From Flavobacteriaceae bacterium (GTDB lineage: Bacteria; Bacteroidota; Bacteroidia; Flavobacteriales; Flavobacteriaceae), in NCBI GenBank assembly GCA_947456815.1, contig CANGTL010000004.1, forward strand, positions 22,958-86,957: 64,000 bases of DNA, written 5' to 3'. The notes under the pieces are model-generated. The model worked only from the letters and a program-made list of their open reading frames with translations, was not told the DNA's origin and ran no database searches. Both the position numbers and the translations under genes were made by a program. Below are positions 1-26,975 of this stretch, piece by piece. Numbering within the stretch: position 1 is the first letter of the stretch; every line of letters starts with the position of its first letter.

Positions 1-188
1 AAAACTTCTAATGGATCCATAATCGAATATCTTTTATCAACTGCCGCATTCTCAAATATCTTCTTGACTTTTCGAATAAAACGCTCCTCCTGCCCGACCA
101 ACCAAGTATCTAAAAATAGAATTATTTCCTCGGTATTCCTAGAATACTTCGGCAATTGTGTGGCAACTGTTGTTATTTTGACATTCAT
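1..188 (-). CDS. Type III polyketide synthase (chalcone/stilbene synthase-like), N-terminal 62 codons, runs off the window edge
   Basis: Not in the ORF track. My translation from ATG 188 is MNVKITTVATQLPKYSRNTEEIILFLDTWLVGQEERFIRKVKKIFENAAVDKRYSIMDPLEV, with no stop to the edge. It resembles Flavobacteriaceae type III PKS N-termini and has an ATGA overlap with the methyltransferase stop. The catalytic Cys lies outside the window. Confidence 0.8.
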   Translation of the reverse strand, partial: MNVKITTVATQLPKYSRNTEEIILFLDTWLVGQEERFIRKVKKIFENAAVDKRYSIMDPLEV

Positions 189-4815: not shown

Positions 4816-6351
4816 TTAGATATGTTTATTTTTATTATTATTTTGAATATAAATCATCCCTATTAGAAAGCAAACTGACGCAATCACAATAGGATACCAC
4901 AATCCTTCTAAATAAAATTCAGGATCACCATCATCTTTCGCATGGGTTACAAAGTACGTTGAAATCGCCGGTAGCAGTCCACCAAAAATTCCGTTTCCTA
5001 CGTGATAAGGCAATGACATTGAGGTATAACGAATTTTTGCGGGAAACATTTCGACTAAAAATGCCGCGATTGGACCATAAACCATCGTCACAAAAATCAC
5101 TTGAATAAAAATTAAGAATATCAACATCCATTGATCATTTGTATTGATATTGATTGTGGTTTTAGTTTCTAATTTAGGTTTTCCATCAACCATAAGTGCT
5201 TTTCCATTTTCAAGACTAACCGTCTTAATTTGAACCATTGTGGTGCCGTCGCTATAGGATTTATTTGTTGTATAAACGGAATCCAAGACCTGGTTTTTAT
5301 TTTCCTTCAATTCAGCAATAATTGTTGACTTTCCAACAAGTTCAGTTTTATTTTCAACATTAGTGGTCGAATACATGCTCTTGTATATAGGGCGATACAG
5401 TACGATAGCCAAAAACATTCCGCCCATCATGATATATTTTCGTCCTATCTTATCACTCAACCAACCAAAAACGATGAAGAATGGTGTTCCTAAAATGAGT
5501 GCGATTCCAAGTAATGTGTCTACTTGAGAAGACTCAATATTCATTACCGTTTTCATAAAATTCATGGCGTAAAACTGCCCCGTATACCAAACAACGCCTT
5601 GTCCCATCGTGGCGCCAAACAAAGCGAGCAGTACAAATTTCAAATTGTATTTGTTTCCGAAACTCTCCTTAATTGGATTGGTACTGGTTTTTCCTTCCGA
5701 TTTCGCTTTGGCAAACACTGGAGATTCCGCCATGTTGGTTCTAATTAAGTACGATACAAATACCATAATGATCGAAACCCAAAATGGAACGCGCCAACCC
5801 CAGTTATCAAATTGTTCTGGCGTTAATACGTTTTTGGTTGCAAGAATGACCATTAATGAAATAAACAAACCAACGGTTGCAGTGGTTTGAATCCACGAGG
5901 TCCAATAACCACGCTGTCCAACTGGCGCATGTTCTGCTACGTAAGTTGCAGCTCCGCCATATTCCCCGCCCAGCGCTAATCCTTGCAAAAGACGCAAAAT
6001 CAGAACTAGCAGCGGTGCTAAAAAACCAATGGTTTCATAACTCGGAATGCATCCAATCAGAAATGTGGCGCCACCCATTAGCAGTAGCGTGACCATAAAA
6101 GTGTATTTCCTGCCAATTAAGTCACCTAGTCTTCCGAAGAAAAGTGCGCCAAAAGGCCGAACGACAAAGCCTGCAGCAAAGGTTGCTAGGGTTGATAAGA
6201 ATGCAGCTGTAGGATTATCAGAGGGAAAAAATTTAGTAGAAATGACGACAGCTAAACTTCCAAAAATGTAAAAGTCATACCATTCAATCATAGTTCCCAT
6301 CGACGAGGCAGAGATCACTTTCCAAATTCCTTTGGTGCTTTTATTTGTCAT
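4816..6351 (-). CDS. MFS transporter, metabolite:H+ symporter (MHS) family
   Basis: GTMIEWYDF, RPFGALFFGRLGDLIGRK, GGEYGGA and EMFPAKIRYT motifs. Confidence 0.93.
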   Translation of the reverse strand: MTNKSTKGIWKVISASSMGTMIEWYDFYIFGSLAVVISTKFFPSDNPTAAFLSTLATFAAGFVVRPFGALFFGRLGDLIGRKYTFMVTLLLMGGATFLIGCIPSYETIGFLAPLLVLILRLLQGLALGGEYGGAATYVAEHAPVGQRGYWTSWIQTTATVGLFISLMVILATKNVLTPEQFDNWGWRVPFWVSIIMVFVSYLIRTNMAESPVFAKAKSEGKTSTNPIKESFGNKYNLKFVLLALFGATMGQGVVWYTGQFYAMNFMKTVMNIESSQVDTLLGIALILGTPFFIVFGWLSDKIGRKYIMMGGMFLAIVLYRPIYKSMYSTTNVENKTELVGKSTIIAELKENKNQVLDSVYTTNKSYSDGTTMVQIKTVSLENGKALMVDGKPKLETKTTININTNDQWMLIFLIFIQVIFVTMVYGPIAAFLVEMFPAKIRYTSMSLPYHVGNGIFGGLLPAISTYFVTHAKDDGDPEFYLEGLWYPIVIASVCFLIGMIYIQNNNKNKHI

Positions 6352-6476
6352 AGATAGATGTATTTCAGTCGAAAAATAGTAATTATTTACTGAGTTTTGT
6401 CGTTTTGAGAATTATTTCGATGAGTCTATCATTTTAATCGATAATTTCACTTATTTTGTATAAATTAATTTGAAAA

Positions 6477-7082
6477 ATGCAATACGACCCACAAGAATTA
6501 GAACAAAAAGCCATTTATAAATTATTATCCGGAATTGTAATTCCACGACCAATTGGTTGGGTTTCTAGTATCAGCGAAGAAGGACTTGTTAACTTGGCGC
6601 CATTTTCGTTTTTTAATGCCGTTGGCGACGACCCGCCCCATGTGATGTTTTCCGTTGGACGAAATATCAACTCAAATCAAGACACTGTTCAGAATGTACT
6701 GACAACAAAGCAATTTGTGGTCAATATGGTGACTGAAGAATTAGTTGAACAAATGAATATGACGGCACAAGCAATTCCATCACACGAAAGCGAATTTGAA
6801 TTTGCCAATCTTACCCCAATCGCATCGCATAAAGTGAAACCGCCAAGAGTAAAAGAAAGCCCGATTAACATGGAGTGCGAGTTGGTACATCATTACACTT
6901 TGGAAAATAGTAAATTTGGAGGTTCAACAATTTTAGTTGGTAGAATCGTTTTGTTTCATATTGATGAGCAAATGCTACTTCCTGATTTCAAAATCAATCA
7001 AGATAACTATCAACCTATATCCAGATTGGCTGGATCTAATTATGCTAAGATTGGGGAAATATTCTCAGTAAAAAGAAATTAA
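6477..7082 (+). CDS. Flavin reductase-like FMN-binding protein (DIM6/NTAB family)
   Basis: IPRPIGWVSS, NLAPFSFFN, PPRVKESPINMEC and ISRLAG motifs. Confidence 0.9.
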   Translation: MQYDPQELEQKAIYKLLSGIVIPRPIGWVSSISEEGLVNLAPFSFFNAVGDDPPHVMFSVGRNINSNQDTVQNVLTTKQFVVNMVTEELVEQMNMTAQAIPSHESEFEFANLTPIASHKVKPPRVKESPINMECELVHHYTLENSKFGGSTILVGRIVLFHIDEQMLLPDFKINQDNYQPISRLAGSNYAKIGEIFSVKRN

Positions 7083-7083
7083 T

Positions 7084-9384
7084 ATGAAAATATCAGTAAT
7101 CGGTGGAGGTCCAGGCGGTTTGTACTTTTCAATTCTATTGAAAAAAGCCATTCCAACTTGCGAAATAGATATCTATGAACGCAACAAGGCTGATGACAGT
7201 TTTGGCTTTGGTGTTGTGTTTTCAGATGAAACTTTAAGTGAATTTCTTTCTCGTGACCCCAAATCCTATGAATTAATTCGCAGCAAATTTGCCTATTGGG
7301 ATGATTTGGATGTCGCACGAGATGGTGAAGTCGTTCGTATTTCCGGCAATGGATTTTGCGGTTGTTCTCGTAAAACTTTATTGCAATTGTTGCAACAGCG
7401 ATGTGTTGAAGAAGGCGTCAATCTTCATTTCGAAACCAATATTGAAGACATCAAACAATTCAAAGACTCCGACTACATTATTGCTTGTGATGGCATAAAC
7501 AGCCCAATTCGAGATCAAAATGCTGCAGCCTTCGGCACGAAAGTGTCGCTTCAAAAAAACAAATTTGTTTGGCTGGGTTCTACTAGACCGTTGGATGCCT
7601 TTACGTATTTTTTCAAGAATACGATTCACGGCGCTTTCGTCGCCCACACCTACCAATATGAAGAAGGTATGAGTACATGGATTTTCGAATGTTCTGAAAA
7701 CACATGGACCAACGCGGATTTTGAAACGACAGATGAGAAAGACACAATCAAGAAATTATCCGAGCTTTTCGCTGAAGAATTAGATGGTCATCCATTGATT
7801 TCAAATAAATCTCATTGGCGTCAATTTCCACACGTTACCAACGAAAAATGGTATAAAGACAATATTGTGCTTTTAGGTGATGCCAAAGCCACCGCCCACT
7901 ACTCTATCGGTTCAGGAACTAAACTAGCGATGGAATGTGCCATTGGCTTAGCCGATTCGATCATCGAATTTAAAACCAACAAAGCGAAAGTTTTTGCTCA
8001 ATATGAAAAATTGCGCAGAAATCGTGTTGAAATGATACAGCATGCGGCAAACGTCTCTCTCGATTGGTTCGAAAATATGGATAGACATATTCATCATGAT
8101 TTTATGCAGTTTGCCTTTGGTGTTATGACGCGATCTAAAAAAGTTACGTATGAAAATTTAGCCCTGCGAGATGCTTCGTTTACGGACAAAGTATTAACAG
8201 AATTCAATTGCAGTATAGGAAATTTTAAAGTCAAAACGCCCGCTGCCTTTACGCCATTTGCACTAAGAGATATGCGTTTGATTAATCGAATTGTGATGTC
8301 GCCAATGGGTCAATATGCCGCTGAAAACGGATTGGTTTCCAATTGGCATTTGGTGCATTATGGTGCACGAGCAACGGGTGGCGTTGGATTGATTTTGACG
8401 GAAATGACCGCGGTGTCAAATACAGGCCGAATCACTTTAGGTTGCGCCGGAATTTGGTCTGAAGAACAAGCATTTAAATGGAAAAAAGTTGTGAATTATG
8501 TTCATAAATATAGCAAGTCTAAGATCGGAATTCAATTAGGGCATTCAGGAAGAAAAGGTTCAATTAATGTGCCTTCCGTGGGTAAAGATATTCCGCTTGC
8601 GAAACGTGGTTGGGATTTGATGTCTGCTTCACCAATTCCATTCAATGCAGCGATGGCAACGCCAAAAGCAATGACACTTACCGACATGGATCAAGTGATT
8701 TCCGAGTTTGTAAATGCAACGATTAATGCCGATGAACTGGGTTTTGATATGATTGAATTACAAGCGCATCATGGATTCTTACTAGCCTCTTTCCTGTCTC
8801 CATTGACAAATATTAGAACTGATGAATTTGGGGGCAGTATTCAAAACAGAATGAAGTTTCCATTGGAGGTTTTTAAAGCAATGCGTGAAGTTTTTACTGA
8901 AACCAAGCCAATGTCGGTGCGTATCTCAGCATCGGATTGGGTCGAAGACGGTATTTCAGAAGATGATGTGATTTACATCTGCAATGCTTTTAAAGAAGCT
9001 GGTGCGGATATCATCAATGTATCGACCGGAAATACAGTCGAAAATCAACAGCCACAAGTAGGTCGAATGTGGCAAACGCCATTCTCTGATTTGGTTCGAA
9101 ATACCTTACATATTCCGACAATAACAACAGGTTACATTCAAAATATAGATCAAATTAATACTATAATATTGAATGGTAGAGCGGACTTAGTAGCATTAGG
9201 TCGACCGTTATTACTGGATCCAAGTTTCGTGCGTCATGCCGAAGCTTATGAACAGTTTCAACCGGCAGATATTCCAAATCAATATGTGGCTGGTGTGTCG
9301 CATCTTTTTCCATATGAGGCGTCCGAAAGAAAAGCTGTTGAAGGCATGAAGAAAGCATTAAAACCAGAAAGTCATAAATCCTAA
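7084..9384 (+). CDS. Bifunctional aryl-CoA monooxygenase/OYE-like reductase (2-aminobenzoyl-CoA monooxygenase AbmA / salicylyl-CoA 5-hydroxylase SdgC family)
   Basis: N-terminal FAD monooxygenase (IGGGPGG, ACDGINS, LLGDAKATAHYSIGSGTKLAME) fused to an old-yellow-enzyme TIM barrel (NRIVMSPMGQY, SPLTNIRTDEFGGS, ADLVALGRPLL). Confidence 0.9.
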   Translation: MKISVIGGGPGGLYFSILLKKAIPTCEIDIYERNKADDSFGFGVVFSDETLSEFLSRDPKSYELIRSKFAYWDDLDVARDGEVVRISGNGFCGCSRKTLLQLLQQRCVEEGVNLHFETNIEDIKQFKDSDYIIACDGINSPIRDQNAAAFGTKVSLQKNKFVWLGSTRPLDAFTYFFKNTIHGAFVAHTYQYEEGMSTWIFECSENTWTNADFETTDEKDTIKKLSELFAEELDGHPLISNKSHWRQFPHVTNEKWYKDNIVLLGDAKATAHYSIGSGTKLAMECAIGLADSIIEFKTNKAKVFAQYEKLRRNRVEMIQHAANVSLDWFENMDRHIHHDFMQFAFGVMTRSKKVTYENLALRDASFTDKVLTEFNCSIGNFKVKTPAAFTPFALRDMRLINRIVMSPMGQYAAENGLVSNWHLVHYGARATGGVGLILTEMTAVSNTGRITLGCAGIWSEEQAFKWKKVVNYVHKYSKSKIGIQLGHSGRKGSINVPSVGKDIPLAKRGWDLMSASPIPFNAAMATPKAMTLTDMDQVISEFVNATINADELGFDMIELQAHHGFLLASFLSPLTNIRTDEFGGSIQNRMKFPLEVFKAMREVFTETKPMSVRISASDWVEDGISEDDVIYICNAFKEAGADIINVSTGNTVENQQPQVGRMWQTPFSDLVRNTLHIPTITTGYIQNIDQINTIILNGRADLVALGRPLLLDPSFVRHAEAYEQFQPADIPNQYVAGVSHLFPYEASERKAVEGMKKALKPESHKS

Positions 9385-10284
9385 ATGAGAACTTTTATTT
9401 TAATATTGATGATGATGTCAATGTCAGTCCAAGCGCAAAAGGAAGACATTATTAATAGTGGCAATTCAAAATTATATTATCGAATTTTCGGCGAAGGAAA
9501 GCCGATGTTAATTATCAATGGTGGTCCTGGTATGAACAGCGATGGATTTAGTAGTATCGCCCAAACATTAACGCAATACGATTACCAAACAATCACCTAT
9601 GATCAGCGAGGAACTGGAAAATCTACATTGGAACTATTAAATTCAAAAACCATTACGATGGATTTGATGGTGGAAGACATGGAAATTCTCAGAACGCATC
9701 TCAACATAGAAAAATGGACAATCCTCGGACATTCTTTTGGTGGCATCATGGCTGCTTATTACGCAACTAAACATCCTGAACGCGTTGAGAAATTGATTCT
9801 GTCCAGTTCAGGAGGCATTAACATGGAGTTTACTTCGTACGTAGCAAAAAGACAACAAGCCAATCTTACAGACATGCAAAGAGATAGTTTGGCTTATTAT
9901 CAAAAGAAACAAAATCACGGTGATACTTCGATTGAAACCATGAAAGGACGTACTAAATTTTTGGCATTTGCTTATGTTTATGATCAATCGAAAGCGCCAA
10001 TTATAGCAGAAAGATTGCAGCAATTTAATGCGGAAATTAATAGATTGGTAATTCAAGATTTATTTAGAATCAAGTACGATTGTTCGAATAAGTTTCCAAA
10101 TTTTGACAAGCCAGTTTTGGTATTGCAAGGTAAAAATGATATTATTACTGTTGATACGGCTCAGAAAACAGCCAAAGCATTTCCCAATTCAAAACTCGTG
10201 TTAATGGATCGTTGTGCACATTACGGTTGGCTTGATGCACCGGAAGTCTATTTTGCTAGCATTCAAAGTTTTTTAAATAGTTAA
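9385..10284 (+). CDS. Exported alpha/beta hydrolase (prolyl aminopeptidase-like)
   Basis: GGPG oxyanion loop, DQRGTGKS, GHSFGG nucleophile and CAHYGW His. Sec signal MRTFILILMMMSMSVQA followed by Gln. Confidence 0.85.
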   Translation: MRTFILILMMMSMSVQAQKEDIINSGNSKLYYRIFGEGKPMLIINGGPGMNSDGFSSIAQTLTQYDYQTITYDQRGTGKSTLELLNSKTITMDLMVEDMEILRTHLNIEKWTILGHSFGGIMAAYYATKHPERVEKLILSSSGGINMEFTSYVAKRQQANLTDMQRDSLAYYQKKQNHGDTSIETMKGRTKFLAFAYVYDQSKAPIIAERLQQFNAEINRLVIQDLFRIKYDCSNKFPNFDKPVLVLQGKNDIITVDTAQKTAKAFPNSKLVLMDRCAHYGWLDAPEVYFASIQSFLNS

Positions 10285-10287
10285 GTC

Positions 10288-11874
10288 ATGAAGCATTACG
10301 ACGACAATTTCGCCCATGATTATTTGCCTGCTTTGGAATTACAGCCTAGTTATATTTTTAATTTACCAGAATTCCAACAGCCAGAAATGTTGAATTGTGT
10401 CGAAAGATTACTCGACCATCACATCCATTCTGGACACGGAAATAGCATTTGTCTGCGCACGTTTGATGCCACTTGGACGTACCAAGAATTGTATGAGAAA
10501 GCCAATCAAATCGCACACGTTTTAATAGAAGATCTCAATCTAAAATCGGGTAATCGTGTCCTAATTCGTTCTGCCAACAACCCAATGATGGTGGCATGTT
10601 GGTTTGCTATTCTTAAAGCTGGAGGTATCGTAGTGGCAACGATGCCGTTGTTGCGATCGAAAGAACTGACAACCATCATCGAATGTGCCGAAATATCGCA
10701 TGCTTTCTGTGATATTGAATTGGCTGATGAAATGAATTTGGTTCAATCTGATTTTTTGCGAGAAGTGTGTTACTATCGCAATGCTACCTTAGAAAAATTA
10801 ATGCAGTCCAAAACGAAAACATTCACCAACTACCATTCAAAATCAGATAGCATCGCCTTAATTGGCTTTACTTCAGGCACCACAGGATTGCCGAAAATGA
10901 CGTCGCATTTCCATGCAGACATTCTCAATATTTGCGAAGCGTTTCCACCTTATTCATTGCAACCGTCGTCAAAAGATATTTTTACAGGAAGTCCACCGCT
11001 TGGTTTTACTTTTGGTTTGGGAGGTTTGGTTTTGTTTCCGATGTATTTTGGAGCATCAACTTTTTTAATAGAAAAACCAAGTCCAGATTTGTTGTTACAG
11101 GCAATTCAAGATCACAAGATCACGATTTGCTTTACAGCGCCCACCGCTTGGCGCGTGATTACGACGAAAGTGCATGAGTTTGATATTTCTAGTCTACGAA
11201 AATGTGTCTCCGCAGGTGAAACTTTGCCTTTAAAAGTTTGGCAGGATTGGTACGACGCTACTGGACTCAAAATCATTGATGGGATTGGAGCGACAGAAAT
11301 GTTGCATATATTTATTTCATCTAACGAATCGAATATGAAACCTGGCGCTACTGGAGTTGCGATTAAAGGTTACGAAGCGAAGATTATTGATGAAAACGGC
11401 ATTGAAGTTCCTAGAAACGAACCAGGACGATTGGCAGTACGCGGCATTACAGGCTGTAAATATTTAAATCGCCCTGACAAACAACAAGAATATGTTCAAA
11501 ATGGATGGAACATCACTGGCGATATATTCCGCAAAGACGATGACGGATACTTTTGGTTTGTCGCTCGAGGAGACGATATGATTATTTCTTCGGGTTATAA
11601 TATTGGCGCGGTTGAAGTAGAAAGTGTACTTTTAACCCACGATGAAATTCATGAATGTGCTGTTGTAGGCCTGCCCGATTCTGAACGCGGAATGGTGGTT
11701 TGTGCCCATATCGTTCTAAAAGAAAAAAGTAAAGCATCCGAAGATTTAACAAAAGCTATTCAGTTGTGGTTTAAAGAAGTAGCTGCTCCATATAAATATC
11801 CAAGAAAGATTCATTTTGTGGAAGAATTGCCTAAAACAGAAACAGGTAAGATTCAACGATTTAAGTTAAAATAA
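10288..11874 (+). CDS. Aryl-CoA ligase (2-aminobenzoate-CoA ligase AbmG-like)
   Basis: FTSGTTGLPK, SPPLGFTFGLGG (aminobenzoate-ligase type), DGIGATEMLHIF and LPKTETGKIQRF. Confidence 0.88.
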   Translation: MKHYDDNFAHDYLPALELQPSYIFNLPEFQQPEMLNCVERLLDHHIHSGHGNSICLRTFDATWTYQELYEKANQIAHVLIEDLNLKSGNRVLIRSANNPMMVACWFAILKAGGIVVATMPLLRSKELTTIIECAEISHAFCDIELADEMNLVQSDFLREVCYYRNATLEKLMQSKTKTFTNYHSKSDSIALIGFTSGTTGLPKMTSHFHADILNICEAFPPYSLQPSSKDIFTGSPPLGFTFGLGGLVLFPMYFGASTFLIEKPSPDLLLQAIQDHKITICFTAPTAWRVITTKVHEFDISSLRKCVSAGETLPLKVWQDWYDATGLKIIDGIGATEMLHIFISSNESNMKPGATGVAIKGYEAKIIDENGIEVPRNEPGRLAVRGITGCKYLNRPDKQQEYVQNGWNITGDIFRKDDDGYFWFVARGDDMIISSGYNIGAVEVESVLLTHDEIHECAVVGLPDSERGMVVCAHIVLKEKSKASEDLTKAIQLWFKEVAAPYKYPRKIHFVEELPKTETGKIQRFKLK

Positions 11875-11890
11875 TATATACGCGTAATAT

Positions 11891-12316
11891 ATGAACCAAC
11901 CCTTTATCAAAACTGAAAAAATCCGTTTCAAACATGTCGATTATGCTGGCATCGTTTTCTATCCACGTTTTTTAGAAATGCTCAATGACTTGGTCGAAGA
12001 CTGGTTTGAAGAAGCACTAGATCGTCCTTTCTCGGAAATTCACGAAACCAATGGGATTCCAACTGTTGATTTGAAAGTGCAGTTCAAAAATGCCGCACGA
12101 TTGGGACAAGTACTCCAAAAGAAATTATGGGTTAAAAATATTGGCTTCGCTTCGCTCCTATGCGGATTCGAATTTATCGACGAAACCGGTAAAACAACAC
12201 TTTCAGGTGAAGTAACTTTGGTGAATGTGGCAATCAGCGAAAATCGCAACGAGATCAAAGCAGAACCCTTTTCCGAAATAATGAAAATGAAAATTTCCAA
12301 ATACATCATCGAGTAG
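11891..12316 (+). CDS. Hotdog-fold acyl-CoA thioesterase (4-hydroxybenzoyl-CoA thioesterase family)
   Basis: IRFKHVDYAGIVFYPRFLEM N-terminal motif. Confidence 0.9.
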   Translation: MNQPFIKTEKIRFKHVDYAGIVFYPRFLEMLNDLVEDWFEEALDRPFSEIHETNGIPTVDLKVQFKNAARLGQVLQKKLWVKNIGFASLLCGFEFIDETGKTTLSGEVTLVNVAISENRNEIKAEPFSEIMKMKISKYIIE

Positions 12317-12324
12317 TATTTTTG

Positions 12325-12355
12325 AACTTACAACTTACAACTTACAACTTACAAC
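12325..12355 (+). repeat. Tandem heptamer (AACTTAC)x4 plus AAC
   Basis: Read directly, between the thioesterase stop and the nitrilase ATG. Confidence 0.95.
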
Positions 12356-12378
12356 ATAGAACTGACAACACACAACCA

Positions 12379-13359
12379 ATGACCTTCCCAAAATTTAAAG
12401 CCGCCGCCGTACAAACAGCACCCGTATTTCTCAATGTACCAAAAACGGTCGATAAAGCGATTTCGTTCATCCAAGAAGCGAGTCGAAATGGTGCGCAACT
12501 CATCGCCTTTCCTGAAGTATTTATCGCAGGTTATCCCTATTGGAATTGGATTATGACACCCGTGCAAGGCAGTAAATGGTACGAACAATTATACAAAAAC
12601 TCCGTCGCTGTTGAAGATGCTGATATGCAACGGTTGTTCAAAACAGCAAAAGACCATAACATTCATGTCGTCATTGGTATTAATGAACGCGGCTCAAGTT
12701 ATGGTGAAATCTACAACACAAATCTCATTATTGATAACCAAGGAAATCTCATAGGGAAGCACAGAAAACTCGTGCCAACGTGGGCAGAAAAACTCACATG
12801 GACCTCCGGTGATGGTTCTTCTTTGAAAGTGTATAACACCGAAATAGGTCCAATAGGCACTTTAGCTTGTGGTGAAAATACGAATACTTTAGCACGATTT
12901 ACATTGTTGACGCAAGGTGAGTTAATTCACATTGCCAATTATATTTCACTACCAGTTGCGCCGCCCGATTACGACATGGCAGAAGCCATAAAGATCCGTG
13001 CTTGTGCCCATTCCTTTGAAGGGAAATTATTCACCATTGTTTCCTGTTCAACGATTTCACAAGAAATAAAAGACGCCTTGCGCAGTGATGTTCCGAATGT
13101 TGATGAAATTCTAACCCGAAAAAATTCTGCTTTTTCTGGATTTATCGGACCCAATGGTGCCGTAATCGGAACGCCATTAATTGATGATGAAGGGATTATC
13201 TACGCCGACATCGATCTCGAAAAATGCATTCAACCCAAACAAATGCACGATATTCTCGGACATTACAACCGTTTTGATATTTTTGATTTACGAGTGAATA
13301 CTGCTCCAACAAGAAATATTACTTTTATAGACAATCACGAGGATTTTAATAAGAAATAA
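12379..13359 (+). CDS. Nitrilase (carbon-nitrogen hydrolase, branch-1-like)
   Basis: Triad motifs FPEVFI, HRKLVPTWAEK and LACGENT. Start moved from the TTG at 12322, which translates the heptamer repeat, to ATG 12379. Confidence 0.9.
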   Translation: MTFPKFKAAAVQTAPVFLNVPKTVDKAISFIQEASRNGAQLIAFPEVFIAGYPYWNWIMTPVQGSKWYEQLYKNSVAVEDADMQRLFKTAKDHNIHVVIGINERGSSYGEIYNTNLIIDNQGNLIGKHRKLVPTWAEKLTWTSGDGSSLKVYNTEIGPIGTLACGENTNTLARFTLLTQGELIHIANYISLPVAPPDYDMAEAIKIRACAHSFEGKLFTIVSCSTISQEIKDALRSDVPNVDEILTRKNSAFSGFIGPNGAVIGTPLIDDEGIIYADIDLEKCIQPKQMHDILGHYNRFDIFDLRVNTAPTRNITFIDNHEDFNKK

Positions 13360-13360
13360 A

Positions 13361-14470
13361 ATGAACGAAAAACATTCTGACGACGTCATCGGTCGCGCCC
13401 GAGTAAAAGACACTCCTGAACTCGAAGCCTATTATAAAGAACTCGAAGCACTCGGCGCCGGTGCCTTGTGGACCGTTGCCAATGATATCGAACCATGGGA
13501 ACCCAGAAGTTCTTCTGTTCCTATGTTGTGGAAATACGAAGATTTACGAAGTTTAGTCTTAAAATCATCTGAACTCGTTACTCCAGAACAAGCCGGACGA
13601 AGAGTCGTCTATTTGGTCAATGACAAACGCAAAGACGTTTCTGCCGCTGTCGGTTGGTTGTATACTGGAATTCAAGTTACACGTCCAGGAGAAAGCACTT
13701 CTGCCCACCGCCACAAAGCATCAGCCTTGCGATTTATTATGGAAGGCGACAAAGGCTACACTGTTGTAGATGGGAATAAAATCATGCTTGAAGTCAATGA
13801 TTTTGTGATTACGCCGAATTCCACTTGGCACGAACACGGTGTAGAAGCCGACGGGCAAACTTGTATTTGGCAAGATGGCCTTGATATTCCGCTCGTCAAC
13901 GCATTAGAAGCCAATGATTATGCGGTGTATGATGGCAAACAACCTCTAGATTTTCCGGTTAATTATTCACCAATCACTTACGGTTGCGCTGGTCTAATTC
14001 CAGCAGATGTGACTTGGGATAAACCATATTCTCCTTTATTTAAATATTCTTGGAAAGTAGTTTATCCCGCTTTACTTGAAATGCTAAAAGTAAAAGAACT
14101 CCATCCGATTGATGGTATTCTAATGCAATATTCCAATCCATTAACAGGTGGCCACGTGATGCAAACCATGGGCGCCTCGATGCAATTGTTACCTGCCGGT
14201 TTCAGAGGGAAAGCGCACAAACATACCGGTTCATTTGTCTATCAATGTGCTAAAGGCAGCGGCTACTCGATTATCAACGGGCAACGATTTGATTGGAAGG
14301 AACGGGATATTTTCTGTGTTCCGTCTTGGGCGTGGCACGAACATCACAACGCATCTGACACCGAAGACGCATGCTTGTTCTCGTTCAACGATTTACCCAC
14401 GATTGAGAAACTCGGATTGTATCAAGAGAAAATATTTGAAGATAACAATGGTTTTCAAAAGTTGAATTAG
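13361..14470 (+). CDS. Bicupin ring-cleaving dioxygenase, gentisate/salicylate 1,2-dioxygenase family
   Basis: AGRRVVYL; SAHRHKASALRF and TWHEH in the first cupin; AHKHTGS and AWHEH in the second cupin; WQDGLDIPLV. Confidence 0.9.
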   Translation: MNEKHSDDVIGRARVKDTPELEAYYKELEALGAGALWTVANDIEPWEPRSSSVPMLWKYEDLRSLVLKSSELVTPEQAGRRVVYLVNDKRKDVSAAVGWLYTGIQVTRPGESTSAHRHKASALRFIMEGDKGYTVVDGNKIMLEVNDFVITPNSTWHEHGVEADGQTCIWQDGLDIPLVNALEANDYAVYDGKQPLDFPVNYSPITYGCAGLIPADVTWDKPYSPLFKYSWKVVYPALLEMLKVKELHPIDGILMQYSNPLTGGHVMQTMGASMQLLPAGFRGKAHKHTGSFVYQCAKGSGYSIINGQRFDWKERDIFCVPSWAWHEHHNASDTEDACLFSFNDLPTIEKLGLYQEKIFEDNNGFQKLN

Positions 14471-14546
14471 GAGCTTTTTCCCGCTCTCCGCTATATCTTT
14501 TGTTTCATTGCATTACACAAAAGGATACCGCTGCGATCGGGGCTAG
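14467..14546 (+). repeat. REP-like hairpin element, copy A (no inner module)
   Basis: TTAGGAGC..CCCGCT..CGCTATATCTTTTG...CAAAAGGATACCGCTGCGATCGGGGCTAG, similar to the copies at 26865, 36473 and 55002. Confidence 0.85.
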
Positions 14547-14586
14547 CCCACCCCACCCTTCGGGCACCCCTCCAAAGGAGGGGAAA
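14547..14586 (+). repeat. GC-rich REP-like palindrome
   Basis: CCCACCCCACCCTTCGGGCACCCCTCCAAAGGAGGGGAA, containing a perfect CCCCTCC-AAA-GGAGGGG hairpin. Single copy in the window. Confidence 0.6.
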
Positions 14587-14612
14587 CCATCAACAACGAT
14601 TAAATAAAATAC

Positions 14613-14620
14613 TAACTTTG
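14613..14620 (+). promoter_or_regulatory. Bacteroidetes -7 element (TAACTTTG), possible internal promoter for FAH-maiA
   Basis: Exact TAnnTTTG about 40 nt before the FAH ATG, overlapping an octamer array. No clear -33 TTG. Confidence 0.35.
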
Positions 14621-14640
14621 CGCCTCCGCGACTTTGCGAG
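14616..14640 (+). repeat. Degenerate octamer array CTT(T/C)GCG(C/A)-like x3
   Basis: ctttgcgc ctccgcga ctttgcga, with a related array at 25965-25988. Confidence 0.7.
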
Positions 14641-14661
14641 CAAAAAAAACAGAAACACACA

Positions 14662-15570
14662 ATGAAACTACTCACCTACCAAACCAAAGATACCGAACCT
14701 CGCTTGGGATTCATTCATAACAACCAAGTCATCGATATGGAAGATTTCGGAGAAATATCCAATTTTCCGTTGCCTACTTCAATGTTAGAACTCATTGACA
14801 TGGGATTTGAAATCATCGATGAACTCAACAGCATGATTGCTGATACAGAACCAGCGTTCTTTAAAGAAATCGCTTACGAAATGGACGAAATTATCTTTCT
14901 CGCTCCAATTCCAAAACCGCGAAAAAACATCATCGGCATTGGATTGAATTATACCGAACACGTGGCAGAAAGTGCGCGTACTTTAGACACTTCCAACGAA
15001 TTGCCACAAAGTCCAATTATATTTTCAAAACCACCAACAACCGTTACGGCCACCAACACCAACATCTTGTTGAATCCCAAATTGACACAACAACTCGATT
15101 GGGAAGTTGAACTGGCAGTCGTGATTGGTAAAAAAGGAAAATACGTGCCTAAAGCCGATGCGATGGATTATGTTTTCGGCTATACCGTAATCAATGATAT
15201 TTCTGCGCGAGATTGCCGCCGATCTGGTCAGTGGATTGTTTCGAAAGGACAAGATACCTTTGCACCGATGGGACCAGTTTTGGTAACAAAAGACGAAATC
15301 TCGAATCCACATAATTTGAATTTATCGTTGACAGTCAATGGTGTCGAGAAGCAAAACTCCAATACCAAATTTATGCTGTTTAACATCAGCGATTTAATTG
15401 AAGATTTGAGCACCGTTTTTACTATCGAAGCCGGAGATATTATTGCAACCGGAACACCATCTGGCGTTGGTGCTGGTCGAAATCCACAAGAATGGTTGTG
15501 GGATGGCGATGTCGTCGAAGCTACTGTTGAAGGCATCGGTACGATTGTCAATACGGTAAAGTCGATGTAG
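14662..15570 (+). CDS. Fumarylacetoacetate hydrolase family protein
   Basis: IGIGLNYTEH, IIFSKP, LDWEVELAVVIGK, NDISARD, SKGQDTFAPMGP and DIIATGTPSGVG. Confidence 0.95.
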   Translation: MKLLTYQTKDTEPRLGFIHNNQVIDMEDFGEISNFPLPTSMLELIDMGFEIIDELNSMIADTEPAFFKEIAYEMDEIIFLAPIPKPRKNIIGIGLNYTEHVAESARTLDTSNELPQSPIIFSKPPTTVTATNTNILLNPKLTQQLDWEVELAVVIGKKGKYVPKADAMDYVFGYTVINDISARDCRRSGQWIVSKGQDTFAPMGPVLVTKDEISNPHNLNLSLTVNGVEKQNSNTKFMLFNISDLIEDLSTVFTIEAGDIIATGTPSGVGAGRNPQEWLWDGDVVEATVEGIGTIVNTVKSM

Positions 15571-15572
15571 CA

Positions 15573-15700
15573 CTAGACCCGCGTTAGGGATTGTAGTGAA
15601 AATCCTTTTTTGTTTAGTGAAAAGCCCTTCGACTGCGCTCAGGGTGACAAACAAAAAAGATTGCAACGAAAAGCCCGCCCGCTTTTTCTGCGGGAACGCC
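15573..15700 (-). repeat. REP-like element, copy B, with nested GTCACCCTGAGCGCAGTCGAAGGG module
   Basis: The reverse complement shares the core CGTT.CAATCTTTTTTGTTT...AAACAAAAAAGGATTT.CACT with copy C. Inner module at 15625-15648, terminal CCCGC/GCGGG hairpin. Confidence 0.85.
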
Positions 15701-15764
15701 CATATAAAAATCCAAAGCCGCAGGCGTGTCTAAAGCGTAGCGTGTCTAAAAATCTAAAAATCTA

Positions 15765-16514
15765 ATGAAAAAATACAGAATTGGACAAATAGTTCCTTCA
15801 TCCAACGTAACGATGGAAACCGAAATTCCAGCAATTTTCCGCTCTAGAGAAACGATATTGCCTGAACGATTTACGTTTCACAGCAGTAGAATGAGGATGA
15901 AAAAAGTTACCAAAGAAGAGCTTGAAGCGATGGATGCGATGAGTTTGAAATGTGCGCAAGAACTTTCTGATGCGCATGTTGATGTCATGGGTTATGCGTG
16001 TTTGGTTGCGATTATGAGTATGGGACGCGGTTATCATTGCGTATCGGAAGTCAATTTGCATCAAGAGACCATTGCCAACGACTTCCCTACTCCGATTGTG
16101 ACTTCCGCTGGCGCCTTGATTAACGGATTGAAAGTCTTAGGAGCGAAGAAAGTCGCGATTATTACACCGTATATGCGTCCGTTGACCGATATGGTTGTGG
16201 ATTATATCGAGCATCAAGGATTTGAAGTAGTCGATTCGATTGCGTTAGAGATTCCGGATAATTTAGAAGTGGCAGCGCAGGATCCGATGAATTTATTGGA
16301 AATCTACAAGCGCTTGGATTTGACTGGTGTGGATGTTTTGGTTGCATCGGCTTGTGTTCAGATGCCTTCGTTGGAAGCCATTGATTTGATTCAAGCAGCC
16401 ATTGGCATTCCAGTGACTTCTGCGGCAGTGTGCACCACTTATGAAATGATGAAGAAGTTGGGCATTGAGGCTAAATCTGCTATAGGTGGGGAACTGCTGA
16501 ATGGAAAGTATTAA
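15765..16514 (+). CDS. maiA: Maleate cis-trans isomerase (Asp/Glu racemase superfamily)
   Basis: YRIGQIVPSSNVTMETEIP and RFTFHSSRMRM, with the catalytic Cys pair in GYACLVAIM and SACVQMPSL. Closely resembles the MaiA/NicE family. Confidence 0.92.
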   Translation: MKKYRIGQIVPSSNVTMETEIPAIFRSRETILPERFTFHSSRMRMKKVTKEELEAMDAMSLKCAQELSDAHVDVMGYACLVAIMSMGRGYHCVSEVNLHQETIANDFPTPIVTSAGALINGLKVLGAKKVAIITPYMRPLTDMVVDYIEHQGFEVVDSIALEIPDNLEVAAQDPMNLLEIYKRLDLTGVDVLVASACVQMPSLEAIDLIQAAIGIPVTSAAVCTTYEMMKKLGIEAKSAIGGELLNGKY

Positions 16515-16791
16515 TTTATTACTTTAGAATGATTTGATGTTAAGTAGAATTTGCTGATGTGGTGGATTTTCTTTGCATGTAGGTCGATGTTGTACTTTTA
16601 TTATTTTAAGCAAAGAAGTGGTAGATTTCAAATTGATGTTTCGAAATAGTACTTTCATATTTAGCTGCAATTAATTGTCAAATTTCAAGTTACAACGAGT
16701 TTTTCACCAGTTCATCGAAAAATTATGGTAGGCAATTTAATTCCTTATACTTTAGCTGAAAATTAATAGTATTAATAAAAACCTACCCCCG

Positions 16792-17061
16792 ATGAATCAA
16801 AGTATTACTACACTAGCCCTCAATCTTTTAATATCAGAAAGATTAAATCACAGAATTGTTTTTGCAGGAAAAATTATTGAAATTCTGCGTCAAAGTATTC
16901 AGGATTTAGAAAATGAAGAAGAAAGATTGAATAATTTTATGGGAACTATTTCAAAATGCACGCAAGAACCAAATTGTCAAGAAAGAGAATTATTTTATGA
17001 ACTTGCGCAGTATTACAACAGCAGAATTTTTGGACAATCAAATTTTTCTGCCGTGGCATAA
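16792..17061 (+). CDS. Hypothetical protein, 89 aa, helical
   Basis: Stand-alone ORF in an otherwise empty interval, with an ATG start and a strong downstream terminator. No recognisable motif. Confidence 0.6.
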   Translation: MNQSITTLALNLLISERLNHRIVFAGKIIEILRQSIQDLENEEERLNNFMGTISKCTQEPNCQERELFYELAQYYNSRIFGQSNFSAVA

Positions 17062-17088
17062 TTGATTGAAATAATGTTCATTGAACTT

Positions 17089-17129
17089 AAAACAAAAAAG
17101 GCTTTCAAAATGAAAGCCTTTTTTGTTTT
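17089..17129. terminator. Bidirectional intrinsic terminator
   Basis: Perfect 19-bp inverted repeat AAAACAAAAAAGGCTTTCA-AAA-TGAAAGCCTTTTTTGTTTT between convergent genes. Confidence 0.92.
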
Positions 17130-17137
17130 TTATATTT

Positions 17138-26868: not shown

Positions 26869-26975
26869 GAGCTTGATCCCGCTATACGTTCCAATCTTTT
26901 TTGTTTTGTCACACCGAGCGCAGTCGAGGTGCTTCACATTAAACAAAAAAGGATTTACACTGCTATCGGGGCTAG
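26865..26975 (+). repeat. REP-like element, copy C, with nested GTCACACCGAGCGCAGTCGAGGTG module
   Basis: ATAGGAGCTTGATCCCGCT...ATCTTTTTTG[inner 26908-26931]CAAAAAAGGAT...ATCGGGGCTAG. Confidence 0.88.

What the first reader, a model, noticed from the sequence alone, without database searches (positions are those of the whole stretch)
6477..16514. Candidate undescribed CoA-dependent anthranilate to 5-hydroxyanthranilate to maleate pathway
Seen: nine co-oriented genes encoding a flavin reductase-like protein, an AbmA/SdgC-type monooxygenase, a hydrolase, an aminobenzoate-type CoA ligase, a thioesterase, a nitrilase, a gentisate-type dioxygenase, an FAH hydrolase and a maleate isomerase. Known: the Azoarcus abm route dearomatises 2-aminobenzoyl-CoA and uses beta-oxidation genes, which are absent here. 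The Streptomyces sdg route goes from salicylyl-CoA to gentisate and needs no C-N hydrolase. Inference: anthranilate is ligated to CoA, 5-hydroxylated, released as 5-hydroxyanthranilate and cleaved 1,2 so that the amino-bearing carbon becomes an amide or nitrile. FAH then releases pyruvate plus maleamate or cyanoacrylate, the nitrilase gives maleate plus NH3, and MaiA gives fumarate. This assigns a role to seven of the nine genes (the flavin reductase-like protein and the exported hydrolase are unplaced), and would yield both C and N from a tryptophan or plant-derived aromatic in a lineage not known for aromatic catabolism.
Basis: partly seen in the sequence, partly recalled or inferred. Interest (0 to 1): 0.85.

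Follow-up and report, generated by a model that had tools for sequence, protein, structure and literature searches.

The report
Anthranilate ring-cleavage operon with nitrilase
This Flavobacterium operon most likely breaks down anthranilate (a product of tryptophan, indole and auxin decay) by a route I found in no searchable paper. The ring would be hydroxylated on a CoA ester and opened with the nitrogen still attached, and a true nitrilase would then free the ammonia.

Summary
The nine co-oriented genes are present as described (6477-16514, + strand). Eight form a conserved core: flavin reductase, FAD-monooxygenase/OYE fusion, aryl-CoA ligase, thioesterase, nitrilase, gentisate-type bicupin dioxygenase, FAH hydrolase and maleate isomerase. 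The exported alpha/beta hydrolase is an accessory.

- **Co-occurrence:** in 150 same-genus genomes the monooxygenase (72) and the nitrilase (70) co-occur almost perfectly.
- **Spread:** the nitrilase-dioxygenase-FAH-isomerase module recurs in Alpha- and Betaproteobacteria and Actinomycetota. There it sits beside tryptophan dioxygenase plus kynureninase, or isatin hydrolase plus a 2-oxoacid oxidoreductase. All of these produce anthranilate or 2-aminobenzoyl compounds.
- **New here (1):** the first substrate-binding His of the monooxygenase's OYE site became Gln at least three times independently. Each time the gene sits in a nitrilase/dioxygenase cluster, whereas His-type enzymes sit with RidA and, in most loci, beta-oxidation genes. 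One blind prediction from this motif held.
- **New here (2):** a second true-nitrilase clade (NIT4-like) fills the same operon slot in two Alphaproteobacteria, which favours a nitrile intermediate.

This scan had already followed up the same cluster type on at least five other genomes and reached the same conclusion. No searchable paper describes it.

The parts
6477..7082 (+). Split-barrel flavin reductase-like protein (FR), first gene of the operon. Role unassigned; candidate quinone-imine or quinone reductase.
   Evidence: PF01613 scores 97 bits. PDB matches are 3bpk at 5e-45 and the 2-nitrobenzoate nitroreductase NbaA (4z85) at 3e-29. It is conserved in 68 of 80 Flavobacterium loci. Homologues also lie in the Burkholderia SFA1 and Ralstonia SL3103 clusters (tblastn), and genes annotated as flavin reductase family proteins lie in the Aminobacter, Tistrella and S. 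alexandrii clusters.
7084..9384 (+). Bifunctional FAD monooxygenase / OYE-type flavoprotein (AbmA/SdgC family). Proposed 2-aminobenzoyl-CoA 5-hydroxylase that releases an aromatic product.
   Evidence: Pfam and NCBIfam assignments. It is about 45% identical to proteobacterial homologues of both cluster types. In 150 same-genus genomes, 70 of the 72 that carry it also carry the nitrilase.
8752..8781 (+). OYE active-site segment IELQAHHGFL. Gln560 replaces the first substrate-binding His and Phe565 replaces the proton-donor Tyr.
   Evidence: Coordinates and alignment. All 120 Flavobacterium homologues carry Gln, as do the 61 loci checked. His-type enzymes read ELHxAHGYL. In the tree the three Gln lineages each nest among His-type sequences.
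9385..10284 (+). Exported alpha/beta hydrolase of the proline-iminopeptidase family. An accessory gene, not part of the core.
   Evidence: The signal peptide ends VQA before QKE. TIGR01250 scores 133.6 bits, below its cut-off of 167.65. It is present in only 11 of 80 loci.
10288..11874 (+). Aryl-CoA ligase, proposed anthranilate-CoA ligase.
   Evidence: The best solved structure is the anthranilate-CoA ligase AuaEII (4wv3, 3.9e-81). It is 48-50% identical to the ligases of abm-type clusters; the Ruegeria one lies next to tryptophan 2,3-dioxygenase and the Ralstonia one is annotated 2-aminobenzoate-CoA ligase.
11891..12316 (+). 4HBT-fold thioesterase, proposed to act on 2-amino-5-hydroxybenzoyl-CoA.
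   Evidence: PF13279 and PF03061. It is present in 79 of 80 loci. A thioesterase also accompanies the module in proteobacterial and actinobacterial clusters.
12379..13359 (+). Branch-1 (true) nitrilase with a CGEN nucleophile motif (Cys164). Proposed ammonia-releasing step after ring cleavage.
   Evidence: PF00795. PDB nitrilases 8uxu at 3e-65 and 6zby at 5e-63. Orthologues are 59-65% identical in Ruegeria, Burkholderia, Embleya and L116 and always sit beside the dioxygenase. Start codon revised from the alignment.
13361..14470 (+). Gentisate-type bicupin dioxygenase of the GDOsp clade. Proposed 5-hydroxyanthranilate 1,2-dioxygenase.
   Evidence: It matches 3bu7 (GDOsp) at 4e-158. All catalytic residues of the gentisate/salicylate dioxygenases are kept, and a second HxH...H motif sits in the C-terminal cupin at H286/H288 and H326/H328. 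TIGR02272 scores 301.9 bits, below its cut-off of 442.1. It is only 38-41% identical to canonical gtdA dioxygenases.
14473..14548 (-). Flavo-1 RNA motif in the gap between the dioxygenase and FAH genes.
   Evidence: Rfam RF01705 scores 67.8 bits against a gathering score of 42.
14662..15570 (+). FAH-family hydrolase, proposed acylpyruvate C-C hydrolase releasing pyruvate.
   Evidence: PF01557 scores 238.7 bits. The best PDB match is 8sky at 1e-63; maleylpyruvate hydrolase 6jvv matches at only 1.6e-26. It is conserved next to the dioxygenase in every cluster type.
15571..15684 (+). Flavo-1 RNA motif in the gap between the FAH and isomerase genes.
   Evidence: Rfam RF01705 scores 57.5 bits.
15765..16514 (+). 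Maleate cis-trans isomerase.
   Evidence: It matches PDB 4fq7/4fq5, deposited as 'maleate cis-trans isomerase', at 7e-95, and 2xec at 5.5e-55. From memory, 4fq7/4fq5 is the enzyme of the Pseudomonas putida S16 nicotine pathway. It is 89-99% identical across the Flavobacterium loci.

Best explanation
The operon is a catabolic pathway for anthranilate (2-aminobenzoate). All steps below are inferred; none has been assayed.

1. The ligase makes 2-aminobenzoyl-CoA.
2. The FAD domain of the bifunctional flavoprotein hydroxylates C5. Because the OYE site is altered (His to Gln, Tyr to Phe), the ring is not reduced as it is in the Azoarcus abm route, and aromatic 2-amino-5-hydroxybenzoyl-CoA leaves the enzyme.
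3. The thioesterase frees 5-hydroxyanthranilate.
4. The GDOsp-type bicupin dioxygenase cleaves between C1 and C2. The amino-bearing carbon leaves as a carboxamide or, by collapse of the imidate intermediate, as a nitrile.
5. The FAH hydrolase splits off pyruvate.
6. The nitrilase releases NH3 and gives maleate. The order of steps 5 and 6 is open.
7. Maleate isomerase gives fumarate.

The flavin reductase may keep the auto-oxidisable p-aminophenol intermediate reduced; this is speculative. The pathway would yield carbon and nitrogen from tryptophan-, indole- or auxin-derived anthranilate.
For: **Conservation of the core.**
- The eight core genes keep the same order in 80 Flavobacterium loci.
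- In the same 150 same-genus genomes the monooxygenase is found in 72 and the nitrilase in 70. All 70 also have the monooxygenase, and the two exceptions are fragmented MAGs.

**The lower module sits beside anthranilate-producing genes in other phyla.**
- Embleya: tryptophan 2,3-dioxygenase plus kynureninase.
- Caballeronia: an adjacent isatin hydrolase matching 5nmp at 1e-137; 55-80% identical homologues lie beside the module in Burkholderia SFA1, Sagittula and Shinella.
- In all seven proteobacterial loci an IorAB-type 2-oxoacid oxidoreductase plus a thioesterase replaces the ligase.
- A full ligase-type copy occurs in a 69% GC genome (L116).

**The ligase looks like an anthranilate-CoA ligase.**
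- Its best solved structure is an anthranilate-CoA ligase.
- It is 48-50% identical to the ligases of abm clusters.

**The OYE site tracks the cluster type.**
- Gln-type monooxygenases always sit in nitrilase/dioxygenase clusters. These are Flavobacterium, four Burkholderiales loci and L116.
- Ten His- or Asn-type loci have none. Nine of them have RidA, most with beta-oxidation genes, and they include the Arthrobacter Rue61a anthranilate plasmid.
- The ML tree nests each of the three Gln lineages among His-type sequences, with support of at least 96/94.
- P0126 was picked on its motif alone and turned out to lie in a nitrilase/dioxygenase cluster.

**Maleate is the exit.** The isomerase matches 4fq7 at 7e-95.

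**The C-N hydrolase slot is always filled by a true nitrilase.**
- It is the only C-N hydrolase in the cluster.
- In Aminobacter and Tistrella a different true nitrilase holds the same slot. It is NIT4-like, matches 6i00 at 5.5e-105, and is 31% identical to this one.
Against: - No enzyme activity, metabolite or expression data exist for any member.
- As I recall, the crystallised orthologue GDOsp was reported active on gentisate (Chen et al. 2008). That paper was not held, so the ring-cleavage substrate could be gentisate.
- The dioxygenase keeps every residue known to matter for gentisate turnover. The sequence therefore does not indicate an amino substrate.
- Neither a ring-cleaving dioxygenase that produces an amide or nitrile, nor a branch-1 nitrilase acting on maleamate, has a precedent that I know of.
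- The alphaproteobacterial and Embleya clusters lack a 5-hydroxylase nearby.
- Sulfitobacter alexandrii carries dioxygenase, FAH and flavin reductase with RidA and no nitrilase. This hints at deamination before cleavage.
- The roles of the flavin reductase and of the retained OYE domain remain unexplained.
Confidence: 0.55

Rival explanations
1. Anthranilate is still the substrate, but nitrogen leaves before ring cleavage. The hydroxylated imine or quinone-imine form of the 5-hydroxy-2-amino intermediate, free or CoA-bound, is hydrolysed to the quinone or keto form. The flavin reductase reduces this to gentisate or gentisyl-CoA. The dioxygenase then cleaves ordinary gentisate, FAH hydrolyses maleylpyruvate directly to maleate plus pyruvate, and the isomerase gives fumarate. 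In this reading the nitrilase would catalyse or assist the C=N hydrolysis, or do something else.
For: - GDOsp was reported as a gentisate dioxygenase (recollection; its structure 3bu7 matched).
- All gentisate-binding residues are conserved.
- A review reports anthranilate to 5-hydroxyanthranilate to gentisate in Nocardia opaca, citing Cain 1968.
- This reading gives the conserved flavin reductase a job. Its solved relatives include a reductase acting on an ortho-substituted benzoate (4z85).
- The S. alexandrii variant pairs dioxygenase, FAH and flavin reductase with RidA, an imine deaminase, and has no nitrilase.
Against: - Nitrilase-superfamily chemistry is attack on nitrile, amide or carbamoyl carbons. 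I know of no ketimine hydrolase in the family.
- Two unrelated true-nitrilase clades fill the slot. That is hard to explain for imine hydrolysis, which RidA or water can do.
- In Alphaproteobacteria and Embleya the nitrilase travels with dioxygenase, FAH and isomerase even where no monooxygenase or flavin reductase is nearby.
Confidence: 0.2
2. This is an ordinary CoA-dependent salicylate-to-gentisate pathway of the sdg/ceh type. The nitrilase, flavin reductase and exported hydrolase are accessory funnels, for example from salicylonitrile or salicylate esters.
For: - The NCBIfam model for salicylyl-CoA 5-hydroxylase gives the best hit for the monooxygenase (980 bits).
- The gentisate dioxygenase model gives the best hit for the bicupin.
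- Ligase, hydroxylase, thioesterase, dioxygenase, FAH and maleate isomerase would suffice for salicylate.
Against: - Both model scores fall below their curated cut-offs.
- The nitrilase is as conserved as the core. It stays with the dioxygenase where the upper pathway is swapped for tryptophan/kynurenine or isatin genes.
- The same NCBI name is applied to clearly abm-type genes that sit next to tryptophan dioxygenase, so the name carries no substrate information.
- The ligase resembles anthranilate-CoA ligases.
Confidence: 0.07
3. The cluster degrades another nitrogen-bearing aromatic acid. Candidates are a 5-substituted or N-acylated anthranilate, a kynurenine-derived acid, or an aromatic nitrile that the nitrilase converts upstream. 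Anthranilate would be only a side substrate.
For: - About half of the Flavobacterium loci carry an extra glutamate-synthase-domain flavoprotein between ligase and thioesterase, and one or two carry an amino-acid permease.
- An exported hydrolase is present here.
- The alphaproteobacterial clusters lack a hydroxylase, as if their substrate were already 5-hydroxylated.
Against: - The accessory genes vary while the core is fixed.
- In three unrelated upstream modules the shared product is an anthranilate or 2-aminobenzoyl unit.
Confidence: 0.12

Closest known systems
Azoarcus/Aromatoleum evansii abm route (2-aminobenzoate-CoA ligase plus 2-aminobenzoyl-CoA monooxygenase/reductase). Abm-type clusters were seen here in Ruegeria, Ralstonia and Arthrobacter Rue61a pAL1.
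   Same: - Same first two enzyme families.
- The monooxygenase is about 46% identical and the ligase 48-50%.
- Same likely substrate.
- Anthraniloyl-CoA and a hydroxyanthraniloyl-CoA were detected in Arthrobacter (PMC3534580).
   Different: - Abm-type enzymes keep the canonical OYE site ELHxAHGYL. In most loci they are followed by RidA plus enoyl-CoA hydratase, SDR or acyl-CoA dehydrogenase genes, which implies ring reduction and then beta-oxidation-like cleavage.
- Here the site reads ELQAHHGFL, and thioesterase, nitrilase, bicupin dioxygenase, FAH and maleate isomerase follow instead.
CoA-dependent salicylate-to-gentisate route (Streptomyces sp. WA46 sdgABCD; Rhizobium sp. X9 cehGHI).
   Same: The logic is the same: ligase, then aryl-CoA 5-hydroxylase, then thioester hydrolysis, then 1,2-cleavage of a 2-substituted 5-hydroxybenzoate.
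   Different: - That route needs no C-N hydrolase.
- Here a nitrilase is a fixed member, and the lower module sits beside tryptophan and isatin genes elsewhere.
- The dioxygenase belongs to the separate GDOsp clade, 38-41% identical to gtdA-type enzymes.
Gentisate pathway with direct maleylpyruvate hydrolysis (HbzF of Pseudomonas alcaligenes; solved maleylpyruvate hydrolase 6jvv).
   Same: A bicupin dioxygenase followed by an FAH-family hydrolase gives maleate plus pyruvate, with no glutathione- or mycothiol-dependent isomerase.
   Different: - The FAH here is only distantly related to 6jvv (1.6e-26) and closer to 8sky (1e-63).
- A nitrilase is interposed.
Maleamate branch of nicotinate and nicotine degradation (maleamate amidase NicF/Ami, maleate isomerase NicE/Iso).
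   Same: - The nitrogen of a ring-fission product is released as NH3 to give maleate, which is then isomerised to fumarate.
- The isomerase here matches 4fq7, deposited as 'maleate cis-trans isomerase', at 7e-95. From memory, that is the nicotine-pathway enzyme Iso.
   Different: - There the amidase has the isochorismatase fold and the ring is a pyridine.
- Here the C-N hydrolase is a branch-1 nitrilase and the ring is a benzene carboxylate.
Nocardia opaca 5-hydroxyanthranilate route (Cain 1968, as summarised in PMC4539516).
   Same: 5-Hydroxyanthranilate is an intermediate of anthranilate catabolism, leading to maleylpyruvate-type products.
   Different: - That route was proposed to deaminate to gentisate before cleavage.
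- No genes were ever assigned and no CoA esters were invoked.
iad auxin-degradation loci (Variovorax, Bradyrhizobium) and isatin hydrolase.
   Same: - They produce isatin, isatinate and anthranilate.
- They contain IorAB-type genes (IadAB) of unassigned role.
- The proteobacterial versions of this module carry the same IorAB plus isatin hydrolase.
   Different: - The published iad pathway stops at anthranilate.
- The nitrilase, dioxygenase, FAH and isomerase module is not mentioned in those papers.

Membership tests
Abm-type 2-aminobenzoyl-CoA monooxygenase/reductase pathway | Aryl-CoA ligase plus a fused FAD-monooxygenase/OYE flavoprotein | tested here: met
   Domain architecture. The proteins are 46% and 48-50% identical to those of abm-type clusters.
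Abm-type 2-aminobenzoyl-CoA monooxygenase/reductase pathway | Canonical OYE site (His-x-x-His-Gly-Tyr) for hydrogenation of the hydroxylated ring | tested here: not met
   The site carries Gln560 and Phe565. All Flavobacterium homologues share Gln.
Abm-type 2-aminobenzoyl-CoA monooxygenase/reductase pathway | RidA plus beta-oxidation-type genes (enoyl-CoA hydratase, SDR, acyl-CoA dehydrogenase) in the cluster | tested here: not met
   None lies in 6477-16514 or its flanks. Nine of the ten His/Asn-type loci examined have RidA, most with such genes.
sdg/ceh CoA-dependent salicylate-to-gentisate pathway | Salicylyl-CoA 5-hydroxylase at equivalog level | tested here: inconclusive
   NF006101 scores 980.4 bits against a cut-off of 1078. 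NCBI applies the same name to abm-type genes.
sdg/ceh CoA-dependent salicylate-to-gentisate pathway | Pathway is complete without any C-N hydrolase | tested here: not met
   The nitrilase is present in 70 of 72 monooxygenase-positive genomes and in all 80 loci.
sdg/ceh CoA-dependent salicylate-to-gentisate pathway | Salicylate is the ligase substrate | not testable with these tools
   This needs an enzyme assay. The sequence leans towards anthranilate-CoA ligases.
Gentisate 1,2-dioxygenase (bicupin, Fe2+) | N-terminal cupin His triad plus the conserved Arg83, Gln108, Arg127, His162 and Asp174 (salicylate dioxygenase numbering) | tested here: met
   Residue-by-residue alignment to 2phd, 2d40 and 3bu7.
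Gentisate 1,2-dioxygenase (bicupin, Fe2+) | Equivalog-level score | tested here: not met
   TIGR02272 scores 301.9 bits against a cut-off of 442.1. The enzyme forms a separate clade with GDOsp that carries a second HxH...H motif.
Gentisate 1,2-dioxygenase (bicupin, Fe2+) | Gentisate is the physiological substrate | not testable with these tools
   This needs assays with gentisate and 5-hydroxyanthranilate.
Branch-1 nitrilase | Glu-Lys-Cys triad and full-length similarity to characterised nitrilases | tested here: met
   The motifs PEVF...HRKLVPT...LACGEN are invariant in seven orthologues. PDB nitrilases match at 3e-65 to 1e-53.
Branch-1 nitrilase | Cys-Trp-Glu (or Cys-Ala-Glu) nucleophile motif; Nit6803 equivalog score | tested here: not met
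   The motif is Cys-Gly-Glu in the whole clade. TIGR04048 scores 229.5 bits against a cut-off of 502.6.
Maleate cis-trans isomerase | Close full-length similarity to structurally characterised maleate isomerases | tested here: met
   4fq7 at 7e-95 and 2xec at 5.5e-55.
Nicotinate/nicotine maleamate branch | Isochorismatase-fold maleamate amidase (NicF/Ami) | tested here: not met
   No such domain occurs in the operon. The only C-N hydrolase is the nitrilase.

The most novel reading that the evidence does not exclude
The GDOsp-type dioxygenase cleaves 5-hydroxyanthranilate, and the imidate-type intermediate collapses to a nitrile: a cyano analogue of maleylpyruvate, then (Z)-3-cyanoacrylate after FAH. 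This would be a ring-cleaving dioxygenase that makes a nitrile. It would also give a branch-1 bacterial nitrilase a defined physiological substrate in central catabolism of tryptophan, indole and auxin products.
Probability: 0.27. Interest if true: 0.9.

Novelty: new variant of a known kind. Interest (0 to 1): 0.7.

Why it matters
- **Ecology.** Anthranilate is the meeting point of tryptophan, indole, quinolone-signal and auxin (iad) degradation. A fourth aerobic route for it appears in about half of the sampled species genomes of this (Flavobacterium) genus. It also occurs on proteobacterial and actinobacterial replicons (Ralstonia, Burkholderia, Ruegeria). This would change how carbon and nitrogen flow from these signals is annotated.
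- **Unassigned genes.** It would give a function to the unassigned IorAB genes of auxin-degradation loci. It would also reassign the function of the crystallised 'gentisate dioxygenase' GDOsp.
- **Enzymology.** The natural substrates of bacterial nitrilases are largely unknown, and a dioxygenase that leaves an amide or nitrile at the fission site would be new chemistry. The repeated His-to-Gln change in the OYE domain offers a simple sequence marker. It separates ring-reducing from ring-retaining members of a family that NCBI annotates under a single name.

Tried and rejected
- **Literature.** Searches for 5-hydroxyanthranilate plus CoA, salicylyl-CoA 5-hydroxylase, anthraniloyl-CoA/gentisate/nitrilase, maleamate plus anthranilate, and cyanoacrylate or 5-hydroxyanthranilate dioxygenase found no description of this route.
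- **GDOsp paper.** The paper (PMC2492823) is not held. Its content is cited from memory only.
- **Upstream genes.** The MFS transporter and acetyl-CoA synthetase are probably unrelated. The synthetase is a true acetate-CoA ligase, and the pair adjoins the operon in only 11-15 of 80 loci.
- **Promoter and terminator scans.** These gave nothing above shuffled background inside the operon.
- **More distant nitrilase relatives.** Those at 47-54% identity in Polaromonas and a haloarchaeon lie in unrelated contexts. The link therefore holds only for the orthologues at about 60% identity or more.
- **Search for a hydroxylase near the Embleya module.** None was found within 12 kb.
- **Dioxygenase residues.** A residue-level comparison could not separate amino from hydroxy substrates.

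Full report
**Observation.** The window comes from a 2.69 Mb, 84-contig Flavobacterium genome that is 91.6% complete. Nine + strand ORFs run from 6477 to 16514. Gaps between them are 0-16 nt, except before the nitrilase and at two gaps of about 190 nt.

Four refinements apply:
- The nitrilase probably starts at the ATG at 12379, because seven orthologues lack the 19-residue extension of the TTG ORF.
- The alpha/beta hydrolase carries a clear signal peptide, but it occurs in only 11 of 80 related loci.
- Each of the two long gaps holds a Flavo-1 RNA motif.
- The upstream MFS transporter and acetyl-CoA synthetase are probably unrelated neighbours.

**Conservation in the genus.** A scan of species-representative genomes with a nitrilase alignment returned 80 loci, nearly all labelled Flavobacterium or Flavobacteriaceae, at 83-96% identity. 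My tblastn of the window's proteins against them gave one order throughout: flavin reductase, monooxygenase, (hydrolase), ligase, (glutamate-synthase-domain protein), thioesterase, nitrilase, dioxygenase, FAH, isomerase. The two bracketed genes are optional, at 11 and 35 loci. In one fixed sample of 150 same-genus genomes the monooxygenase is in 72 and the nitrilase orthologue in 70. All 70 also carry the monooxygenase, and the two exceptions are fragmented MAGs. Among 400 other Bacteroidota genomes the orthologue was seen only in this genus. The nitrilase is therefore a core pathway member, not a passenger.

**The lower module elsewhere.** tblastn against plasmid and chromid records found the nitrilase (59-65% identity) and the dioxygenase (56-66%) side by side, with FAH and a maleate isomerase, in several lineages:
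- Alphaproteobacteria: Ruegeria pomeroyi, Sagittula and Shinella.
- Betaproteobacteria: Burkholderia SFA1, Caballeronia and Ralstonia SL3103.
- Actinomycetota: Embleya.

What changes between lineages is the upper part.
- **Embleya:** tryptophan 2,3-dioxygenase and kynureninase immediately precede the module.
- **Proteobacteria:** an IorAB-type 2-oxoacid:ferredoxin oxidoreductase plus a thioesterase replaces the ligase. Beside the Caballeronia cluster lies a protein matching solved isatin hydrolase at 1e-137, and 55-80% identical homologues lie beside three further clusters. Isatinate is 2-aminophenylglyoxylate, so oxidative decarboxylation by IorAB would give 2-aminobenzoyl-CoA.
- **L116 (69% GC contig):** it carries the full ligase-type version with a PaaX regulator.

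These three unrelated upstream modules converge on anthranilate or 2-aminobenzoyl-CoA. The ligase here is also closest to an anthranilate-CoA ligase structure and to the ligases of abm clusters. Together this makes anthranilate, not salicylate, the likely substrate.

**A marker in the monooxygenase.** Aligning monooxygenases from both cluster types shows a consistent difference. Abm-type enzymes have the canonical OYE site ELH(A/C)AHGYL. The Flavobacterium enzyme has ELQAHHGFL, and the betaproteobacterial enzymes of nitrilase-type clusters have ELQAGHG(Y/F)L. All 120 Flavobacterium homologues carry Gln.

I then treated the motif as a prediction. Among full-length 50%-identity representatives of the whole family, only P0126 had Gln. 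Its contig turned out to encode ligase, thioesterase, monooxygenase, nitrilase, bicupin, FAH, isomerase and PaaX.

His- or Asn-type representatives behave differently. P0124, P0129, P0131, P0134 and P0145 lie with RidA and have no nitrilase or bicupin. So do the Ruegeria, Ralstonia, Arthrobacter Rue61a and Rhodococcus BG43 loci. Most of these loci also carry beta-oxidation-type genes. P0128 also has neither nitrilase nor bicupin. The truncated Cupriavidus cluster of monooxygenase, dioxygenase and FAH has Gln.

A maximum-likelihood tree places the three Gln lineages separately, each nested among His-type sequences with support of at least 96/94. The same active-site change therefore arose at least three times, each time together with the dioxygenase/nitrilase lower pathway. 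The simplest reading is that these enzymes no longer hydrogenate the hydroxylated ring and release aromatic 2-amino-5-hydroxybenzoyl-CoA. Where the ring is reduced, nitrogen leaves from an enamine through RidA. Where it stays aromatic, nitrogen must leave later. This reading is an inference; the retained OYE domain must still do something.

**The lower steps.**
- **Isomerase:** it is a genuine maleate isomerase (4fq7 at 7e-95), so maleate is produced. That requires a 2-substituted 5-hydroxybenzoate as the ring-fission substrate.
- **Dioxygenase:** it belongs to the clade of GDOsp (3bu7 at 4e-158), which itself sits in the Ruegeria module. It keeps every catalytic residue of gentisate and salicylate dioxygenases. 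It also has a second HxH...H motif in the C-terminal cupin that canonical enzymes lack.
- **C-N hydrolase:** the only one present is a branch-1 nitrilase with an unusual Cys-Gly-Glu motif.

The nitrile option is made more plausible by an imidate (iminolactone) intermediate, the nitrogen analogue of the lactone in the accepted mechanism. This could expel the enolate to leave a nitrile.

A new piece of evidence bears on this. In Aminobacter and Tistrella the same dioxygenase clade and FAH are followed by a different true nitrilase and a flavin reductase. This nitrilase is NIT4-like, with 6i00 at 5.5e-105, a Cys-Trp-Glu motif and 31% identity to ours. NIT4 enzymes act on beta-cyanoalanine, a small carboxylated nitrile of about the size of 3-cyanoacrylate. 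No amidase-type replacement was seen in the few variants examined.

**Counter-evidence.**
- No biochemical data exist for any member.
- GDOsp was, as I recall, assayed on gentisate; that paper was not available.
- Sulfitobacter alexandrii pairs dioxygenase, FAH and flavin reductase with RidA and a thioesterase and has no nitrilase.
- The flavin reductase recurs with the dioxygenase in six cluster types, and its solved relatives include 2-nitrobenzoate nitroreductase.
- A review records a 5-hydroxyanthranilate-to-gentisate conversion in Nocardia opaca.

These points keep alive a rival in which a quinone-imine form is hydrolysed and re-reduced to gentisate before cleavage. I give it about 0.2. 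The plain salicylate reading gets about 0.07, and another nitrogenous aromatic acid about 0.12.

**Novelty.** Nine full-text searches found no description of a nitrilase-linked anthranilate or 5-hydroxyanthranilate route. The iad auxin papers end at anthranilate and leave IadAB (IorAB) unassigned. The scan's own notes show that the same cluster type had already been followed up on at least five other genomes with the same conclusion. This window is therefore another instance, not a first sighting.

Two things are added here: the convergent His-to-Gln marker with its blind test, and the NIT4-type replacement. The enzyme families are all known and the pathway logic is a hybrid of known routes, so I class it as a new variant of a known kind. 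A nitrile-forming ring cleavage would be categorically new; I put its probability at about 0.27.

**Limits.**
- Context sampling outside Flavobacterium rests on about 25 loci.
- The related loci are not independent of one another.

Noticed in passing
window 14473-14548 (-), 15571-15684 (+), 26871-26977 (-), 36471-36572 (+): There are four Flavo-1 RNA motifs (RF01705, 57-71 bits) in 64 kb. Two of them fill the only long intergenic gaps of the operon, in opposite orientations. They look like a repeated intergenic element of unknown function.
   Followed up: partly
L020 (Ruegeria pomeroyi DSS-3 megaplasmid) 11992-15873: The crystallised 'gentisate 1,2-dioxygenase' GDOsp (PDB 3bu7) is the second gene of a nitrilase-dioxygenase-FAH-isomerase operon. 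It lies opposite IorAB, a thioesterase and two MarR genes. Its physiological substrate may not be gentisate.
   Followed up: partly
L113 (Aminobacter aminovorans pAA02) 8992-12612; L115 (Tistrella mobilis pTM2) 9010-18559: This is a variant architecture. A GDOsp-clade dioxygenase and FAH are followed by a NIT4-like nitrilase (the two are 70.6% identical to each other) and a flavin reductase. No maleate isomerase is annotated within the 9 kb flanks fetched.
   Followed up: partly
L114 (Sulfitobacter alexandrii plasmid) 8475-12482: This variant has MarR, dioxygenase, FAH and flavin reductase, with RidA and a thioesterase divergently transcribed. It has no nitrilase and may represent deamination before ring cleavage.
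   Followed up: no
L002 14007-15590, L004 15516-17099, and 35 of 80 Flavobacterium loci: A 527-residue glutamate-synthase-domain (PF01645) flavoprotein sits between ligase and thioesterase in about half of the Flavobacterium operons. It is absent from this window and its role is unknown.
   Followed up: no
window 185-2031 (-) and upstream of position 185: A coupled FAD-oxidoreductase and methyltransferase pair is present. In F. caeni (L004) the same pair continues into a type III polyketide synthase, a FabA-like dehydratase and a ketosynthase. This suggests an alkylresorcinol- or aryl-polyene-like biosynthetic set next to the catabolic operon.
   Followed up: no
window 17089-17129 and 17138-22207 (-): A 19-bp-stem bidirectional terminator-like hairpin is followed by a 1689-residue Ig-repeat protein with a CHU_C type IX secretion signal.
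   Followed up: no
L123 (Arthrobacter Rue61a pAL1) 5481-12394; L124 (Rhodococcus BG43) 4972-12376: This is a third, actinobacterial cluster type for anthranilate. It has RidA, FAH, a small monocupin, a TesB-like thioesterase, a ligase, a His-type monooxygenase and PaaX. Its lower steps are also undescribed.
   Followed up: no
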